Shown here piece by piece: positions 4,056 to 40,548 of a stretch of 40,953 nucleotides of DNA. Both the position numbers and the translations under genes were made by a program. How positions within the stretch are numbered: position 1 is the stretch's first letter; every line of letters begins with the position of its first letter. Source of the stretch: Escherichia phage vB_Ec_Tarrare. Where the stretch lies: sequence record OQ507919.1; one strand, 5' to 3'. The notes below the pieces were generated by a model. That model was not told the origin of the DNA and searched no databases. It saw only the letters and a list, made by a program, of their open reading frames with translations.

Positions 4056-4078
4056 TAATACGACTCACTAATGGGAAA
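4056..4078 (+). promoter_or_regulatory. phage RNAP promoter (phi1.1B-like)
   Basis: taatacgactcactaatgggaaa, in tandem 27 bp downstream of the first promoter. Confidence 0.8.
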
Positions 4079-31200: not shown

Positions 31201-32229
31201 AAGTACGGTACTCAGGAGATAGCTGCTCGTTCCCCGTTCACTAAGTTACTTAACGCTACCTCTAACGTTATCGTCGATACTGCTCGTCAAGGGTTCTTAG
31301 GTAACATCGTTGAGTCTGCCCTTATGGGTAAGAAGTCCAAGTGGGGCGCTGAGCCTTTCCTTAAAGCTGCTTCGGTAACTCCTGAACAGTGGGAAGGTAT
31401 TCAGAGACTCATTCGTGACCACATGGAGTTGGGTACTGACGGGAAGTACCATATGCGAGACCAGAAGGCGTTTGCCTCAGACCCACGCAGTATGGACTTA
31501 TGGCGACTGGCTGACAGAATGGCAGACGAGACAATCCTGCGTCCTCACAAGGTATCCTTACAGGACACTAGTGCGTATGGTGCGTTAGTCAAGCTTGCTG
31601 CGCAGTTCAAAGCGTTCTCCATCAAGTCACTTAACTCTCGTCTGATAAGGGCTTATTACGATGCAACCAAGAATAACCGAGCGATTGATTCGGCTATGGT
31701 ATTGGCTGTAAGTAGTGGTTTGGGTCTAGGGATGACAGTACTGACCTCTCAGTTGAAGGCTTTAGGTCTACCTGAGAATGAGCGTAAGGAGTACTTGGAG
31801 GGTATCATGAACCCTACTATGCTGACATATGCTTCACTGGCTCGTAGCTCTCATACTGGTTCTGCGTTTGCATTGGCTGACATGCTAGGTGCTCCGTTCG
31901 GTTATAGCATGATGAAGGACTTGCGTACATCCATCGTACCACGTCCAGAAGCCGAGAAGGATACCTCAAAGGTTCCTACTCCAAAGTCTATGGCTGATAC
32001 CATCATGGGTAACTTAGGACAACAGATTCCGGCGTTAGGATTCGTTGGTGCTGTAGGTGCTACTGGCGTAGGTATCAACAAGTACCTAACGGCTGACACT
32101 AGCGCTCAACGTCAAGAGTCTCTTACTGGAATGTGGGGTGCTATGAGGAACTTAGTACCTAACGATCCGATCACTCAACAGCTACTTCTGAACATCTACG
32201 AATCTCAAGGGATCGACGTAAGGAAGTAA
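28255..32229 (+). CDS. 16: internal virion protein D with N-terminal lytic transglycosylase domain (gp16)
   Basis: 1324 aa with a GTG start after SD aggagg; MDKYDKNVPNEYDGLFQKAADANGVSYDLLRKVGWTESRF...GPLGMMQFT is the SLT-type motif; collinear with T7 gp16. Confidence 0.95.
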   Translation: MDKYDKNVPNEYDGLFQKAADANGVSYDLLRKVGWTESRFKPDAKSKTGPLGMMQFTKATAKAMGLKVTGGADDERLNPELAINAAAKHLGQLVQKFDGDELKAALAYNQGEGRLGIPQLEAYARGDFAKISAEGRNYIRNLADVARSPMSAKLEEFGGITPKAKGIPADVAFKGIDKKGSVGDTLPESTGMNLVGKEQEAKAKPFAKDFWEKRGETISEYEDRGIWSGFGESVKSEVHNSVLGMAVRTAASGGGMDVFMDSITPTRWNSHVFSEEELTKIRKEVKNPAYLNVVTGGSTETIDDLIKLANENYEADMKAAGSGVAAQLTAGVLGVAIDPTSWIPVAGAAGKGFKLVKKALVVGAESAAMSAVSEGLRTSYIGGEADYQNAMLGGFVFGSGMSALSDAVGNALRKRGVTDTDIPQNEFLGPLARMEARETALNANSLDLSRMKTDTLQFQEGAHGVKFADHPVEAGAVILEDGSIISAGNPLNPKAFKEYQQLEAKVTPKARAGVNLGGFTEIGQTILRSDNESIRKIGSDLVRSPLGLEDMSGGKFGATASDIHERIHYVDQRTYRQLDGLMKEALKDPEFSVGIFKTSREGAQQEIFKRVALAIERPELQTNLTKGELDILKVVKEHFDSKRELMENPAMFGNSKAVSIFPESRHKGTYVPNVYDTTAKNLSIQRMGSAEALQKAIADSWIVSYHARPEVKARVDESLKEVLGVEEVTLDMVNKYAMDKAYGISHSDQFQVSSVLEENLGITNAGLEGIENNSFLEARNLFDSDMPITLPDGTTFAVNDLRSFDMFKIMPAYDRRINGDIAIMGGTGKTTKELKDEINMLRQQAKGNGKLEKEANALGDVVKMLTGRARRGADNQLEIMARSLSDLSFATKNAYMGLMNLSEVASMIAKGNLRGVMANIPYVRDMAYRKHPLAPEELREISSSFFGVEIDQTLRPSRADIIQRIRETTSSQGITADILGTVKYGTQEIAARSPFTKLLNATSNVIVDTARQGFLGNIVESALMGKKSKWGAEPFLKAASVTPEQWEGIQRLIRDHMELGTDGKYHMRDQKAFASDPRSMDLWRLADRMADETILRPHKVSLQDTSAYGALVKLAAQFKAFSIKSLNSRLIRAYYDATKNNRAIDSAMVLAVSSGLGLGMTVLTSQLKALGLPENERKEYLEGIMNPTMLTYASLARSSHTGSAFALADMLGAPFGYSMMKDLRTSIVPRPEAEKDTSKVPTPKSMADTIMGNLGQQIPALGFVGAVGATGVGINKYLTADTSAQRQESLTGMWGAMRNLVPNDPITQQLLLNIYESQGIDVRK

Positions 32230-32249
32230 TACGACTCACTATTGGGAGA
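32227..32249 (+). promoter_or_regulatory. phage RNAP promoter (phi17)
   Basis: taatacgactcactattgggaga, overlapping the gene 16 stop. Confidence 0.9.
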
Positions 32250-32303: not shown

Positions 32304-34229
32304 ATGGCTAACGTAATCAAGACCGTTTTGACTTATCAGCTAAATGGTACTACTCGTGATTTTAATATTCCGTTTGAGTATCTGGCTCGTAAGTTTGTTG
32401 TGGTCACACTGTTAGGTAAAGACCGTAAGGTACTTACTCTGAATACTGATTATCGATTTGCAACTCGTACTACCATCTCCACCACTAAGGCTTGGGGACA
32501 GGCAGATGGTTACACTCACATTGAGTTACGCCGAAACACCTCAGCGACTGAACGCTTGGTGGACTTTACTGACGGTTCGATTCTACGCGCGTATGACCTG
32601 AACGTTGCTCAGATTCAGACTATGCATATTGCAGAAGAAGCTCGTGACCTTACTGCTGATACTATCGGTGTCAACAACAATGGGGACTTAGATGCTCGAA
32701 ACCGTAAGATTGTAAACTTGGCAGACGCGGTTAACCCTCGTGATGCTGTCCCTCTAGGTCAGATTCAGGGGATAAACCAGAATGCTTGGCAAGCACGAAA
32801 TGAGGCTCAACAGTTCAGAAACCAAGCTGAGACCTTTAAGAACCAAGCCCAAGGTTTCCGTAACGAAGCAGAAGCGTTCCGAAACACTACTAACCAGAAC
32901 GCACAGACTACTACAGCCGATCGTGCAGCCGCTCTACAGTCAAAGGAAGAAGCTGAGCGCGCTCGTGCTGCTGCCCAACAGTCACAACAACAGGCTGCTG
33001 CATCTCAGACAGCCGCAAGTAACTCAGCCGCTGAGGCTAAGCGTGAAGCAGATCGCTCCAAAACAGAGGCTGATAGGGCTAAAGTAGAGGCCGATAAGTT
33101 AGGAAACTGGAACCAACTTGCAGGTACTGTGGATAACGTGACTGGTACTAGCGTGACCTTTAAGGACAAGGTAGGTGCTCTAGGTGGGTTCGTATCGGCT
33201 ACTCCTGATGGATACCGATTGAAGTACACTAACTTCTCTACGATTCTACGTCAAGACGCTAATGCGTTCTACATACTGACTACCAATAAGGGAGATGTTA
33301 ACGGGCCATTCAACTCGCTACGTCCTATGTACATTGACAACGCATCGGGATGGGTGACGTTTGGTAACGGTGCGGGTGTTAATGGTAGACTCACTACGAC
33401 AGAGGGTGTTGCGGTTCCTAACTCTAAGATGTACTTCAACAAGAGCCTGATTCAGTTGGAGAGCCAGAACTTCACAGACAGGGCGGTGAACATGCGAGTT
33501 TGGGGTAACGCCTCAGGTCGTAATAACGTGTGTGAATGGGGCGATGCTCACGGTTGGCTGATGTATGTACAGCGTAGGGATTGGAATGCTAACGCTGGGT
33601 CAAACATCCAGTTAAGTGTTAACGGACAGGTGGTGGCTAATAACATTATATCCACTGGAGGGGCTTACTTCCAGAATGGACATGCTGTAACGCTGGAATC
33701 TGCGTCCAATATGGCACACTACATCATCTCTAAGGATGGCGGCAGGAACAACTGGTACGTTGGTCGTGGGACTAATGGCAACAATGACGTCGCTCTCCAC
33801 TCTTATGTACACGGAACTACTCTTTCTCTACGCCAGAACTATGCGCAGGTCAACAAGCACTTCTATGTAGGCTCCGCTGTAGTAGCAACTGATGGTAACG
33901 TTCAGGGTACTAAATGGGGCGGTAAGTGGCTTGATGTGTTCCTGAATGATACATACATTAAGAAGACCAAAGCTTGGACTCAGGTATGGTCTGGAAGTGC
34001 TGGTGGTGGTGTCAGTGTGACCGTATCCCAAGACTTGCGATTCCGTAATATCTGGATTAAGTGCGCCAACAACTCTTGGAACCACTTCCGTACAGGCCCT
34101 GATGGTATTTACTTCATTGCGTCTGATGGTGGCTGGTTGCGATTCCAGATTCACTCCAACGGTAGAGGCTTCAAGAACATTGCAGACAGTCGCTCTGTTC
34201 CTCAGGCTATCATGGTGGAGAACGAATAA
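32304..34229 (+). CDS. 17: tail fibre protein
   Basis: 641 aa; N-terminal tail-attachment domain (MANVIKTVLTYQLNGTTRDFNIPFEYLARKFVVVTL) and C-terminal tip (...WIKCANNSWNHFRTGPDGIYFIASDGGWLRFQIHSNGRGFKNIADSRSVPQAIMVENE) match T7 gp17; the central part differs and is longer. Confidence 0.95.
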   Translation: MANVIKTVLTYQLNGTTRDFNIPFEYLARKFVVVTLLGKDRKVLTLNTDYRFATRTTISTTKAWGQADGYTHIELRRNTSATERLVDFTDGSILRAYDLNVAQIQTMHIAEEARDLTADTIGVNNNGDLDARNRKIVNLADAVNPRDAVPLGQIQGINQNAWQARNEAQQFRNQAETFKNQAQGFRNEAEAFRNTTNQNAQTTTADRAAALQSKEEAERARAAAQQSQQQAAASQTAASNSAAEAKREADRSKTEADRAKVEADKLGNWNQLAGTVDNVTGTSVTFKDKVGALGGFVSATPDGYRLKYTNFSTILRQDANAFYILTTNKGDVNGPFNSLRPMYIDNASGWVTFGNGAGVNGRLTTTEGVAVPNSKMYFNKSLIQLESQNFTDRAVNMRVWGNASGRNNVCEWGDAHGWLMYVQRRDWNANAGSNIQLSVNGQVVANNIISTGGAYFQNGHAVTLESASNMAHYIISKDGGRNNWYVGRGTNGNNDVALHSYVHGTTLSLRQNYAQVNKHFYVGSAVVATDGNVQGTKWGGKWLDVFLNDTYIKKTKAWTQVWSGSAGGGVSVTVSQDLRFRNIWIKCANNSWNHFRTGPDGIYFIASDGGWLRFQIHSNGRGFKNIADSRSVPQAIMVENE

Positions 34230-35299: not shown

Positions 35300-36139
35300 A
35301 TGGCCCTACACGAAGTCAACCTGTGGAATTTCAATTCCCGCACACATTCGTCTCTCGACGTTGGAGCGCCTTACGGTGGCCTCTACTCTGGACGCATAGA
35401 CTTACCTGAAAGTTACCGAAAGTCTAAGATGTTCAAGGTTAGAGTTTCTGGAACACACGCTCTAGAGACCTACGCTAGCTATTCTGCTATGCTTACAGGA
35501 ATCGGAGGAACGTCGGTGTCAAACCTAAATGGTAGAGAAGCGATCATTGAGTTTAACACATCGTCCTCAACAAACGGGTTGCGAGGCATCTACTCCGTAG
35601 AGGGCGTGTTTGTTAGGGATTGGCATCCAGACGAAGCGTTGACAAAAGGTGCCGCCGAGATGTTCATAAAGCCGCATGGTGTAGACGAGTACGTTTGGAC
35701 TGGTTCTCAGTCTGTAGGTAACGGCTCAGAGTTAAACCTATTGTCCCTAAACGGGTTCTCTACCGATGTTGCCACTGGAGCCACTACCATTAACGCTGCG
35801 TCTCTTGTGGTGCTTCCTGCGGAGGTGAAGAGTAGAGGGCTGATCATTTCTGTAATCCTAGATGGCACTTATGACCAACAAGGGCCACATGAGATGAAGG
35901 TTCAGATACGAAGCGCTGATGGTAAGACGTTGCAACAATCTAGCCCATTGTATGTTCTGGACAAGAACGTCAAGAAGCTTACCGCAACATTTGCAGACTA
36001 CACCCTTGGTGTGTATGACGAAAGTAGTACCACTGGATTTAAGCTTGTATTTATCAATGATAGTACATCCAATATGTCACTGACTGGTGTACGAATCGTT
36101 GTTCAAAATATCTCTAATCCAGACTTCACACGTTCTTAA
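35300..36139 (+). CDS. hypothetical protein, no T7 counterpart (first gene of a two-gene late-region insertion)
   Basis: 279 aa ORF; SD aaggag 7 nt upstream of the ATG, which sits 1 nt after the Rz stop. Rich in S/T/G/N/V and apparently beta-rich; no signal peptide, transmembrane helix or catalytic motif recognised by eye. Confidence 0.8.
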   Translation: MALHEVNLWNFNSRTHSSLDVGAPYGGLYSGRIDLPESYRKSKMFKVRVSGTHALETYASYSAMLTGIGGTSVSNLNGREAIIEFNTSSSTNGLRGIYSVEGVFVRDWHPDEALTKGAAEMFIKPHGVDEYVWTGSQSVGNGSELNLLSLNGFSTDVATGATTINAASLVVLPAEVKSRGLIISVILDGTYDQQGPHEMKVQIRSADGKTLQQSSPLYVLDKNVKKLTATFADYTLGVYDESSTTGFKLVFINDSTSNMSLTGVRIVVQNISNPDFTRS

Positions 36140-36154: not shown

Positions 36155-37267
36155 ATGTTAGTTACTCGAACGGCAACTTACACCGATTGGATATTCATGG
36201 CTGCTCACGCAAACGAGAGGGTCGATGACATTGGTCAAGGTCTCTTAGAGGGTCATATTTATTTCCGTTATGCCTATGACATGCTGAACGATGGTGACGA
36301 GGTAGTACGAGAGGTATCACATGTACATCTTAGCGATGGGTCAACATACCCTCTAGGAGAAGGAGTGTCCTCCGAAAAGATAGACATCACGTACCACGGT
36401 CTCACTAGTGATGGTAGCGTATACCTTGAGGTTAATGGACATAAGGGAATTGGTGTTAGTAGCATTACTCGTACCCTGACCATTCAATATGACGATGGGA
36501 AGGTTCCTGTTCTGGACACTGACCAACTCAAAGGGATTCTTTCAGAACTTCATGACAGCCTTGAGGCTAGTATGATTAATACCGCAAACGCTGTCAAAGA
36601 GGAACTGCGAGACGAGTTGGAAACCAAGGTGCTGGACGCCAAGGAGTCCTGCAACGAGGCTACCGAGGCTGTTAACACCGAGTTGACCGCCAAGATCGCA
36701 AATGAGAGTGGTCGCATTGATAGCCTAACGAGTACCCTTGTGACTGTTCAGGGTAACTTGGATACTACCATGAAGCGCGTTGGTAAAATCTCTCCCAATA
36801 TGGGTAAGTGGTCTTTCGGTCGATACACCATCAACTCGAAGCAGACCAACAACTTACTGGCTGCTGCGCCTACAGCGTTGGCGCCGGAAGGGTCTATCTT
36901 CACATATGATGATACCAACAAGGTCTTTAAGATGTCTGGAGGTGCTGCCCCAACAGACAGGATTCTGCGGGTTACGTTCACTACAGGGATTGACACGTTG
37001 AGTGCTGACTACCGAGGATACTTATCGTTCATGCTGCGAAACTCCAGTGGTGGAGTCTTGGCTAGCGACATGAGGTTCCTAAACATGGATGCTGGTCTTA
37101 CCCAACAACTGAGCGCCATACAGTTCAGCCTTGAGCTATACTTAGAGGCGTCTAAAGGTCATCCAGTATACAACTCAGGTATCCAGTTAGCTTTCCACAA
37201 CAGTGCTAACACGGCTCTTGCCATACTGTCCGGTGGTGTTGCAAGCTTCACCTTACTGACAGCTTAA
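36155..37267 (+). CDS. hypothetical protein with central coiled-coil segment, no T7 counterpart (second gene of the insertion)
   Basis: 370 aa ORF; SD aaggag 8 nt upstream. Residues ~121-210 (DTDQLKGILSELHDSLEASMINTANAVKEELRDELETKVLDAKESCNEATEAVNTELTAKIANESGRIDSLTSTL) look alpha-helical with a heptad-like pattern, flanked by beta-rich N- and C-terminal regions. Confidence 0.8.
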   Translation: MLVTRTATYTDWIFMAAHANERVDDIGQGLLEGHIYFRYAYDMLNDGDEVVREVSHVHLSDGSTYPLGEGVSSEKIDITYHGLTSDGSVYLEVNGHKGIGVSSITRTLTIQYDDGKVPVLDTDQLKGILSELHDSLEASMINTANAVKEELRDELETKVLDAKESCNEATEAVNTELTAKIANESGRIDSLTSTLVTVQGNLDTTMKRVGKISPNMGKWSFGRYTINSKQTNNLLAAAPTALAPEGSIFTYDDTNKVFKMSGGAAPTDRILRVTFTTGIDTLSADYRGYLSFMLRNSSGGVLASDMRFLNMDAGLTQQLSAIQFSLELYLEASKGHPVYNSGIQLAFHNSANTALAILSGGVASFTLLTA

Positions 37268-40010: not shown

Positions 40011-40048
40011 AGTTAGCTATAGAGAGTTATCTCTAATCATGGTCTTAT

Positions 40049-40071
40049 TAATACAACTCACTATTGGGAGA
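40049..40071 (+). promoter_or_regulatory. phage RNAP promoter (phiOL-like)
   Basis: taatacaactcactattgggaga (A for G at -11), in the same relative place as T7 phiOL. Confidence 0.75.
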
Positions 40072-40104
40072 TACTCTATAGACTACTTAAAGAGGAGGGT
40101 TATC

Positions 40105-40548
40105 ATGTATCAAGGATTAACTATATCAAATGGTGTCTTAATAAGGGAGTCAACAGGTAAACCTTGTAAGACATTCTCTAACGGTAAATACCTAAGGATA
40201 AACCATAAAGGCCGGATGTATTACCTACACCGTGTCTTGTGGGAACTTACACACGGCTCAATACCTAAGGGTTACACTATAGACCATATAGACGGTAATC
40301 CTACAAATAACAATATTGACAACCTAAGGTTAGCCTCTTATAGTGAGAACAACATGAATCGGGTATCTACGGTAGACAATGGCCTACCTCAAGGTATCTA
40401 CTGGTGTAACTCTAAGAGTCGCTATGTGGCTCAGGTGGTAGCTCAAGGCGTTAAGAGAACAAAGACCTCAAAGAGCCTTGATGTAGTCACTGAGTGGGTT
40501 AAAGAGACACGAAAAGAGATTCATAAAGAATTTGCCATTAAGTGTTGA
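40105..40548 (+). CDS. HNH-AP2 homing endonuclease-like protein in the left-end leader
   Basis: 147 aa from the ATG at 40105 (SD aggagg); YTIDHIDGNPTNNNIDNLRLASYSENNMN is the HNH motif, with an AP2-like C-terminal half; paralogous in type to gene 3.8. T7 has no gene between phiOL and the A promoters as far as I recall. Confidence 0.8.
   Translation: MYQGLTISNGVLIRESTGKPCKTFSNGKYLRINHKGRMYYLHRVLWELTHGSIPKGYTIDHIDGNPTNNNIDNLRLASYSENNMNRVSTVDNGLPQGIYWCNSKSRYVAQVVAQGVKRTKTSKSLDVVTEWVKETRKEIHKEFAIKC

What the first reader, a model, noticed from the sequence alone, without database searches (positions are those of the whole stretch)
33144..33534. Tail fibre with conserved ends but an expanded central block
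The gp17 N-terminal attachment domain and the last ~230 residues match T7 gp17 closely, but residues ~281-410 (VDNVTGTSVTFKDKVGALGG ... GNASGRNNVC) have no T7 counterpart and replace a much shorter T7 segment, making the protein 641 aa against ~553 aa as recalled. This is domain-level mosaicism in the host-range determinant.
Basis: partly seen in the sequence, partly recalled or inferred. Interest (0 to 1): 0.45.

Follow-up and report, generated by a model that had tools for sequence, protein, structure and literature searches.

The report
T7-type tail fibre with extra shaft module
The tail fibre of this T7-like coliphage (vB_Ec_Tarrare) is 88 residues longer than T7's because it carries one extra copy of a common phage-fibre shaft domain, while its receptor-binding tip is almost identical to T7's, so this is ordinary domain shuffling and not a new kind of host-range device.

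Summary
Gene 17 (32304-34229, +) encodes 641 aa against 553 aa in T7. The N-terminal domain is 86% identical to T7, the last 231 aa are 77% identical, and the tip is 93% identical.

The excess is one 88-aa insertion, at about aa 301-388 (placement ambiguous by roughly 10 aa).

The insertion coincides with one copy of a widespread fibre module at aa 282-378:
- Pfam PF21446, 46.9 bits.
- T4 gp34 residues 1024-1124 (triple beta-helix plus P4 beta-prism), E 3.5e-11.
- Mu S residues 270-348, E 4.7e-11.
- 654 cluster representatives in 1.84 billion proteins at E <= 0.001.

T7 lacks the module (1.1 bits). The segment after it (aa 382-459, T7 295-371) is a gp34 P3-like domain that both phages share.

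The module is under purifying selection (dN/dS 0.10). It occurs in 19 of 121 T7-like fibre sequences, 7 of them with this exact architecture. I found it in no other named phage.

The most likely role is an extra shaft nodule that lengthens the distal half-fibre by an estimated 4-5 nm. It is probably not the specificity determinant. Interest is low.

More unusual are two orphan genes downstream. One is predicted to be a coiled-coil fibre with a TNF-like lectin head.

The parts
32227..32249 (+). T7-type late promoter in front of gene 17 (TAATACGACTCACTATTGGGAGA), equivalent in position to T7 phi17
   Evidence: 1 mismatch to the T7 consensus, one of 8 matches where 0 are expected by chance. T7 phi17 has the same relative position. 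An AAGGAGG ribosome-binding site lies just upstream of the ATG.
32304..34229 (+). Gene 17, tail fibre protein, 641 aa (WEU68286.1, Escherichia phage vB_Ec_Tarrare)
   Evidence: Synteny is gp16 - gp17 - holin - gp18 - Rz, as in T7.
32304..32789 (+). N-terminal tail-attachment domain, aa 1-162
   Evidence: PF03906, E 3.8e-62. 86% identical to T7 over aa 1-150. Matches solved T7 gp17 N-terminal structures.
32790..33113 (+). Coiled-coil rod (proximal half-fibre), aa ~163-270. The central part, aa 191-255, is only 25% identical to T7 although the length is the same.
   Evidence: identity by segment. The helix at the start of the AF2 model covers aa 263-275. A 42-nt-spaced direct repeat lies at 32918-32997.
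33147..33437 (+). The extra module, aa 282-378: short triple-beta-helix turns plus a five-stranded beta-prism, like T4 gp34 P4 and Mu S
   Evidence: My own HMM built from 205 domains of unrelated fibres scores 111 bits here against 1.1 bits for T7. PF21446, 46.9 bits. gp34 1024-1124, E 3.5e-11, and Mu S 270-348, E 4.7e-11. AF2 pLDDT is about 87-94 with five strands. Foldseek hits 5yvq and gp34 with probability 1.0.
33204..33467 (+). Best single-gap placement of the 88 residues absent from T7 (aa 301-388). Placement is ambiguous for start positions 296-313.
33447..33680 (+). Shared second nodule, aa 382-459 (T7 295-371), gp34 P3-like
   Evidence: Profile A3 against the PDB: T7 295-371 at E 3e-26, gp34 961-1023 at E 1.5e-12. 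A profile of T7-like sequences only gives E 0.0018 for gp34. AF2 confidence is low here in the monomer model.
33684..33956 (+). Pyramid domain, aa 461-551
   Evidence: PF20744, E 2.8e-32. The model superposes on T7 gp17 4a0t/4a0u at 1.3-1.5 A over 95 residues. 71% identical to T7.
33963..34226 (+). Receptor-binding tip domain, aa 554-641
   Evidence: PF12604. 93% identical to T7, with 5 substitutions, none at the key positions from deep mutational scanning.

Best explanation
The block is one additional, autonomously folding shaft module of the trimeric fibre: a few turns of triple beta-helix plus a five-stranded beta-prism nodule. It is homologous to the P4 region of T4 gp34 and to the corresponding part of Mu S.

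The module sits directly after the conserved junction that ends the coiled-coil rod (KLGNWNxLAGTVDxVxG) and directly before a second, P3-like nodule that T7 also has. The Tarrare distal half-fibre therefore reads P4-like, P3-like, pyramid, tip, where T7 reads P3-like, pyramid, tip.

The expected physical effect is one more nodule and roughly 4-5 nm of extra distal fibre. That changes reach and geometry, while receptor specificity stays with the almost T7-identical tip.

Shown here: the homology, the position, the absence from T7 and T3-type fibres, purifying selection, and recurrence in other T7-like fibres. Inferred: trimeric packing, the length gain, and a purely structural role.

Direction of the change: gain in the Tarrare clade is somewhat more parsimonious than loss in the T7 lineage, but this is not settled.
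For: - Sequence homology to solved shaft segments: gp34 1024-1124 at E 3.5e-11 and Mu S 270-348 at E 4.7e-11. In gp34 that range is triple beta-helix (1014-1047), the P4 beta-prism, then triple beta-helix (1105-1128) (PMC5537660).
- Pfam PF21446 scores 46.9 bits against a cutoff of 27. PHROG hits all fall inside internal parts of long fibre proteins.
- The AF2 model predicts the module with pLDDT about 87-94. Five strands lie at aa 302-308, 311-318, 321-327, 342-345 and 351-353, with the long loop between strands 3 and 4, as described for gp34 P4.
- Foldseek returns T7 4a0t for the pyramid domain, which serves as a positive control, and 5yvq and gp34 for the rest.
- The module HMM scores 111 bits in Tarrare and 1.1 bits in T7.
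- The flanking region aa 382-459 is a gp34 P3-like domain.
- The module-then-P3-like order also occurs in 5 unrelated fibre representatives.
- dN/dS is 0.10 for the module, against 0.03-0.07 for the other gene-17 regions tested.
- The tip is 93% identical to T7 and the key specificity residues are unchanged.
- GC content across the block is unremarkable.
- In a neighbour-joining tree of the P3-like domain, the seven fibres that carry both modules form one clade nested among T7-like fibres that lack the module.
Against: - The model is a monomer, so trimeric packing and the axial length gain are not demonstrated.
- The 4-5 nm figure is only a scaling from gp34 (18 nm for residues 901-1270).
- No experiment links the module to any phenotype.
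- Shaft domains of other fibres can carry secondary binding sites, and dN/dS of the module is the highest among the gene-17 regions tested.
- The tree that favours gain rests on an ~80-residue domain, has no support values, and ignores recombination. All non-T7-like outgroups carry module plus P3-like domain, which is also compatible with repeated loss.
Confidence: 0.7

Rival explanations
1. The module is a functional binding domain. It would provide a secondary glycan or surface-binding site on the side of the fibre that contributes directly to host range, for example a first reversible contact with O-antigen or outer core before the tip engages.
For: It lies in the host-range protein. dN/dS (0.10) is somewhat higher than in neighbouring domains. 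The two subtypes of the module within the Tarrare-type clade are only 44-47% identical while the N-terminus stays about 90% identical. In gp34, a P4 loop (1076-1087) is proposed to make a contact with the sheath.
Against: Every detectable relative is an internal shaft segment of a long fibre. There is no similarity to lectins or known receptor-binding domains in Pfam, the PDB or PHROGs. dN/dS is far below 1. The known specificity surface of the T7 tip is conserved.
Confidence: 0.15
2. The difference is a deletion in the T7/T3 lineage and not an expansion in Tarrare. On this reading the ancestral T7-like fibre had the two-nodule cassette (module plus P3-like domain), as Mu-like and other fibres do, and T7 lost the first nodule.
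For: The cassette in the same order exists in 5 unrelated fibre representatives, and every non-T7-like sequence that has the P3-like domain also has the module. The start of T7's P3-like domain (aa 293-315) is its most divergent part compared with all module-bearing forms, as a junction scar might be. MAFFT aligned T7 YMTTN-GFDCGQY to the module core YILTTNKGDVNGPF.
Against: The module HMM finds nothing in T7 (1.1 bits, E 2.3 among 121 sequences). Pfam PF21446 is absent from T7 even at E <= 10. The supposed relic aligns about equally well to three different places. In the P3-like domain tree the module-bearing T7-like fibres form one derived clade among 16 fibres that lack the module, so one gain needs fewer events than several losses.
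Confidence: 0.35
3. The block is an assembly or annotation artefact, such as a chimeric contig or a frame error joining unrelated sequence.
For: The only argument is that the genome's own record was not found in the phage collection searched.
Against: The 641-aa ORF is uninterrupted and has its own late promoter and ribosome-binding site. The identical protein is in NCBI as WEU68286.1. Six other clusters from independent samples share the architecture in T7-like synteny. The codon-level pattern indicates purifying selection. There is no compositional break.
Confidence: 0.02

Closest known systems
Bacteriophage T7 gp17 (553 aa; PDB 4A0T/4A0U for residues 371-553, 7BOZ/7EY9 and others for the N-terminus)
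   Same: Same gene position, promoter and overall plan: N-terminal attachment domain (86% identical), coiled-coil rod, conserved junction, P3-like nodule, pyramid (71%) and tip (93%).
   Different: T7 lacks the 88-aa module. The central coiled coil (aa 191-255) is only 25% identical.
T3 / 13a / phiA1122-type gp17 (558 aa, cluster P0010)
   Same: Same plan as T7. Its tip type, with the AASGGSYMAGGQQT-like insertion, is the one found in the module-bearing relatives P0003-P0007.
   Different: It has no module, and its tip is only 67% identical to Tarrare's.
T4 gp34 C-terminal shaft, residues 961-1124 (P3 and P4 beta-prisms in a triple beta-helix; PDB 4UXE, 5NXF, 5NXH; Granell et al. 2017, PMC5537660)
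   Same: The module aligns to gp34 1024-1124 (E 3.5e-11) and the following domain aligns to gp34 961-1023. The predicted five-stranded sheet has its long loop between strands 3 and 4, as in P4.
   Different: Identity is only about 30-38%. The order is reversed: P4-like then P3-like here, P3 then P4 in gp34. The host protein is the proximal long-fibre subunit of a myovirus and not a podovirus fibre.
Phage Mu tail fibre protein S (PDB 5YVQ)
   Same: Residues 270-348 align to the module at E 4.7e-11. It is the second-best Foldseek target after T7 itself. In related fibre representatives the module is followed by a P3-like domain, in the same order as here.
   Different: Different N-terminal anchor and a different receptor-binding C-terminus that depends on a chaperone.
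Uncultured T7-like phage fibres P0002-P0007 (Logan/ENA assemblies, e.g. contigs in SRR12179530 and SRR24146878)
   Same: Identical domain architecture: PF03906 + PF21446 + PF20744 + PF12604, 640-665 aa. Same synteny, including the two orphan genes after Rz.
   Different: 60-86% identical overall. P0003-P0007 carry a T3-type tip. P0005-P0007 carry a second subtype of the module that is 44-47% identical.

Membership tests
T7 gp17-type tail fibre (Studiervirinae) | N-terminal tail-attachment domain (Pfam PF03906) | tested here: met
   E 3.8e-62, 209 bits against a cutoff of 25.2, aa 1-162. 86% identical to T7.
T7 gp17-type tail fibre (Studiervirinae) | Pyramid and tip domains of the T7 C-terminal receptor-binding region (PF20744, PF12604; PDB 4A0T) | tested here: met
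   E 2.8e-32 and 2.8e-14. phmmer against 4a0t gives E 1e-104. The model superposes at 1.3-1.5 A over 95 residues.
T7 gp17-type tail fibre (Studiervirinae) | Gene position between gp16 and the holin, behind a phage-RNA-polymerase late promoter | tested here: met
T7 gp17-type tail fibre (Studiervirinae) | Homotrimer, six per virion, kinked fibre that binds rough LPS | not testable with these tools
   Needs EM and adsorption assays.
Gp34_trimer module (PF21446; T4 gp34 triple beta-helix + P4 beta-prism) | Profile match above Pfam's gathering score | tested here: met
   46.9 bits against 27, aa 255-344. My independent HMM scores 111 bits over aa 282-378.
Gp34_trimer module (PF21446; T4 gp34 triple beta-helix + P4 beta-prism) | Sequence homology to the solved gp34 segment 1024-1124 | tested here: met
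   E 3.5e-11 against 4uxe and 2.8e-10 against full-length 9x3r.
Gp34_trimer module (PF21446; T4 gp34 triple beta-helix + P4 beta-prism) | Five-stranded antiparallel sheet with a long loop between strands 3 and 4 | tested here: met
   AF2 strands at model residues 41-47, 50-57, 60-66, 81-84 and 90-92 (aa 302-353), pLDDT about 87-94.
Gp34_trimer module (PF21446; T4 gp34 triple beta-helix + P4 beta-prism) | Three sheets packing into a trimeric prism continuous with the triple beta-helix | not testable with these tools
   Only monomer prediction was available.
gp34 P3-like beta-prism (region aa 382-459, shared with T7) | Sequence homology to gp34 ~961-1023 | tested here: met
   E 1.5e-12 with a profile that includes Mu-like intermediates. 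E 0.0018 with T7-like sequences only. T7's own segment alone finds nothing.
gp34 P3-like beta-prism (region aa 382-459, shared with T7) | Predicted fold | tested here: inconclusive
   Monomer AF2 pLDDT is 46-65 over this stretch.
Receptor-binding or lectin domain (considered for the inserted block) | Similarity to any known carbohydrate- or receptor-binding fold or family | tested here: not met
   The only hits are internal fibre-shaft segments in Pfam, PDB, PHROGs and Foldseek.

The most novel reading that the evidence does not exclude
The extra nodule could be an adaptive change of the adsorption apparatus and not a neutral spacer. By lengthening or re-angling the distal half-fibre, or by offering a weak side-on glycan contact, it would let a T7-type tip reach the LPS core on hosts where plain T7 fibres cannot. 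It might work together with the predicted coiled-coil, TNF-like lectin-headed protein encoded three genes downstream, which co-occurs with this fibre type in related uncultured phages. That would give this Rindgevirus-like clade a two-component host-recognition system not described for T7-like phages.
Probability: 0.1. Interest if true: 0.55.

Novelty: new member of a known kind. Interest (0 to 1): 0.22.

Why it matters
Tail fibres of T7-like phages are favourite scaffolds for host-range engineering. This fibre shows that a natural one tolerates a complete extra shaft nodule between the rod and the P3-like domain. The conserved junction KLGNWNxLAGTVDxVxG and the module boundaries mark permissive splice points for grafting or length tuning.

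The analysis also assigns folds to the part of T7 gp17 that Pfam leaves unannotated: residues ~295-371 are gp34 P3-like.

Beyond that the finding is ordinary. Module exchange among phage fibres is long established, and the specificity-bearing tip here is essentially T7's.

Tried and rejected
- Relic of the module in T7. MAFFT aligned T7 YMTTN-GFDCGQY to the module core. Two other aligners placed the same T7 residues elsewhere, single-gap scores are flat, and neither the module HMM nor Pfam sees anything in T7. I rejected it as unsupported.
- Recent transfer from a T-even phage. Rejected, because the best tblastn identity is 38%, the best identities in 1.84 billion proteins are at most ~51% over partial stretches, only Tarrare's own cluster reaches E <= 1e-30, and GC content is normal.
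- Flanking direct repeats that might have mediated the insertion or deletion. Only short chance-level repeats turned up.
- Named T7-like phages with the module. tblastn with the full protein, the block, and two other module-bearing C-termini found none in 50,697 phage records. That collection does not contain Tarrare itself, so it is incomplete.
- Literature on Tarrare. I found no text about this phage. The taxonomy look-up gives Rindgevirus tarrare. The 2012 PNAS paper on the gp17 structure is not held, so the T7 fibre dimensions I quote are from memory.
- T7's own segment 285-375 against the PDB gives no gp34 hit. The P3-like assignment needs profiles.

Full report
**Identity of the window.** The window is the complete 40,953-bp genome of Escherichia phage vB_Ec_Tarrare. 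The tail-fibre protein is 100% identical to WEU68286.1 on a 40,953-bp contig. The phage is classified as Rindgevirus tarrare, Studiervirinae. At the DNA level it is only about 78-80% identical to T7 and its relatives. Its own record is not in the phage collection I could search.

**Observation check.**
- The ORF at 32304-34229 (+) encodes 641 aa; T7 gp17 is 553 aa.
- It sits behind a T7-type late promoter at 32227-32249 and an AAGGAGG ribosome-binding site. It lies between gp16 and the holin, as in T7.
- The finding's coordinates correspond to aa 281-410. The quoted peptide starts at aa 276, a small slip.
- Identity to T7 is 86% for aa 1-150, 25% for aa 191-255, 53% for aa 401-460, 71% for the pyramid domain and 93% for the tip. 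It is 77% over the last 231 residues.
- The length difference is exactly 88 aa. One gap of 88 scores best at aa 301-388 (window 33204-33467), with a flat optimum for starts at 296-313.
- The observation therefore holds, but the T7-less stretch is 88 aa and not about 130. About 42 of the flagged residues align with T7.
- T3/13a/phiA1122-type gp17 (558 aa) also lacks the block.

**What the block is.**
- Pfam places PF21446 (Gp34_trimer) at aa 255-344 with 46.9 bits against a cutoff of 27.
- A PDB sequence search aligns aa ~275-376 with T4 gp34 1024-1124 (E 3.5e-11) and aa 294-373 with Mu S 270-348 (E 4.7e-11).
- In the gp34 crystal structure that range is triple beta-helix (1014-1047), the P4 beta-prism nodule, then triple beta-helix (1105-1128). 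P4 is a five-stranded antiparallel sheet whose only long loop lies between strands 3 and 4 (PMC5537660).
- An exhaustive phmmer search of 1.84 billion cluster representatives found 654 proteins at E <= 0.001. Only Tarrare's own cluster reached E <= 1e-30. The other proteins are fibres of about 100-4,200 aa, often with several copies of the module.
- An HMM built from 205 such domains scores 111 bits on Tarrare aa 282-378 and 1.1 bits on T7. PF21446 is also absent from T7 and T3-type gp17 at E <= 10.
- The insertion and the module coincide, so the difference is one whole domain.
- An AF2 model of aa 262-555 (65-sequence alignment) predicts the module with pLDDT about 87-94. Five strands fall at aa 302-353, with a long 3-4 loop.
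- Foldseek returns T7 4a0t/4a0u for the pyramid domain (1.3-1.5 A, a positive control), and then Mu S 5yvq and gp34 with probability 1.0.

**The neighbouring domain.**
- The stretch after the module (aa 382-459, T7 295-371) has no Pfam annotation in T7.
- A profile of this region hits gp34 961-1023, the P3 beta-prism, at E 1.5e-12 when Mu-like intermediates are included, and at E 0.0018 with T7-like sequences only.
- T7's segment alone finds nothing, and the monomer model is of low confidence there.
- The distal half of the fibre thus reads P4-like, P3-like, pyramid, tip in Tarrare, and P3-like, pyramid, tip in T7.

**Distribution and evolution.**
- I scored 121 T7-like fibre sequences (T7 plus the 120 best clusters). 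Nineteen carry the module.
- Among the 120 clusters, 7 carry the module plus the P3-like domain (the Tarrare type, P0001-P0007), 12 the module only, 16 the P3-like domain only (the T7 type), and 85 neither.
- The Tarrare-type genes lie in T7-like synteny in independent metagenome assemblies.
- The modules move independently. P0003-P0007 share the block but carry a T3-type tip, and P0005-P0007 carry a second subtype of the block that is 44-47% identical.
- The module-then-P3-like order also occurs in 5 unrelated fibre representatives.
- Against the closest relative (L002), dN/dS is 0.10 for the module and 0.03-0.07 for the other gene-17 regions tested. The block is therefore a constrained, functional part of the protein.
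- GC content shows no break, and no flanking repeats stand out.
- A neighbour-joining tree of the P3-like domain puts the seven module-bearing T7-like fibres in one clade nested among module-less ones. That favours one gain over several losses. The domain is short, the tree has no support values, and all outgroups carry both modules. I put gain at roughly 60-65%.
- A possible module relic in T7 (YMTTN-GFDCGQY) is not supported.

**Mechanism.**
- Most likely the module is an additional shaft nodule. Scaling from gp34 (18 nm for residues 901-1270) suggests about 4-5 nm of extra distal fibre. This is an inference.
- From memory, and not checked here, T7's distal half-fibre is about 15.5 nm with four nodules.
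- The tip differs from T7 only at A465K, S467T, F506H, L533R and N546Q (T7 numbering).
- The positions singled out by deep mutational scanning (G479, N501, D520, D540, R542) and the specificity-switching sites D520 and V544 are unchanged (PMC8043750).
- Primary receptor specificity should therefore be T7-like. The block more probably affects reach, geometry or stability than specificity.
- A direct binding role cannot be excluded, but no similarity supports it.

**Comparison and novelty.**
- The protein meets every testable criterion for a T7 gp17-type fibre, and the block meets those for the PF21446 / gp34 P4 module.
- Module exchange among phage fibres is well established, and the protein is already public and annotated as a tail fibre.
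- Possibly new points are modest. This architecture was found in no other named phage among 50,697 records. T7 gp17 residues 295-371 can be assigned to a gp34 P3-like domain.
- I rate this as a new member of a known kind, with low interest.

**Noticed in passing.**
- Two genes between Rz and the large terminase (35300-36139, 279 aa; 36155-37267, 370 aa) have no tblastn match in the phage collection.
- The 370-aa protein has 39 metagenomic relatives, several on T7-like contigs that also carry Tarrare-type fibres.
- It is predicted (pLDDT 86) as an N-terminal beta domain, a ~90-residue helix and a C-terminal TNF-like jelly roll. The closest structures to the jelly roll are trimeric lectins (PLTL 9ib7, E 7e-6; BC2L-C).
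- That looks like an accessory fibre or decoration protein, and it is more unusual than the flagged block.

Noticed in passing
window 36155-37267 (+): A 370-aa orphan gene (TARRARE_45) between Rz and the large terminase. It has no match in 50,697 phage records but 39 metagenomic relatives, several on T7-like contigs with the same fibre type. The AF2 model (pLDDT 86) shows an N-terminal beta domain, a ~90-residue helix and a C-terminal TNF-like jelly roll closest to the trimeric lectins PLTL and BC2L-C. It may be an accessory fibre, a second receptor-binding protein or a decoration protein.
   Followed up: partly
window 35300-36139 (+): A 279-aa orphan gene directly after Rz/Rz1. It has no Pfam hit and no tblastn match in the phage collection, only PHROG 17779 of unknown function (E 1.7e-14). 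It is conserved next to the 370-aa gene in the related contigs L002 and L003.
   Followed up: partly
window 32874-33068 (gp17 aa 191-255): A second replaced segment in the fibre. The central coiled coil has the same length as in T7 but is only 25% identical (Ala/Gln/Ser-rich). It includes a 38-nt direct repeat spaced 42 nt apart at 32918-32997.
   Followed up: partly
L001 (T7 NC_001604) gp17 aa 295-371; window 33447-33680: The part of T7 gp17 between the rod and the pyramid domain has no Pfam annotation. By profile search it is homologous to the P3 beta-prism of T4 gp34 (961-1023).
   Followed up: yes
window 15801, 19093, 20137, 24493, 32227, 39134 (+): Six identical phage promoters, TAATACGACTCACTATTGGGAGA, differ from the T7 consensus at a single base (T for A just before GGGAGA). 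More diverged copies lie at 4056 and 40049.
   Followed up: no
window 40039-40548 (+): A 169-aa HNH homing-endonuclease-like ORF near the right genome end (PHROG 99, E 3e-41). A promoter-like site (2 mismatches) lies at 40049-40071, inside the start of the ORF.
   Followed up: no
L002 2658-3050: The closest relative's contig carries an Endonuclease_7 (PF02945) gene between gp13 and gp14. I did not check whether the window has the same gene.
   Followed up: no
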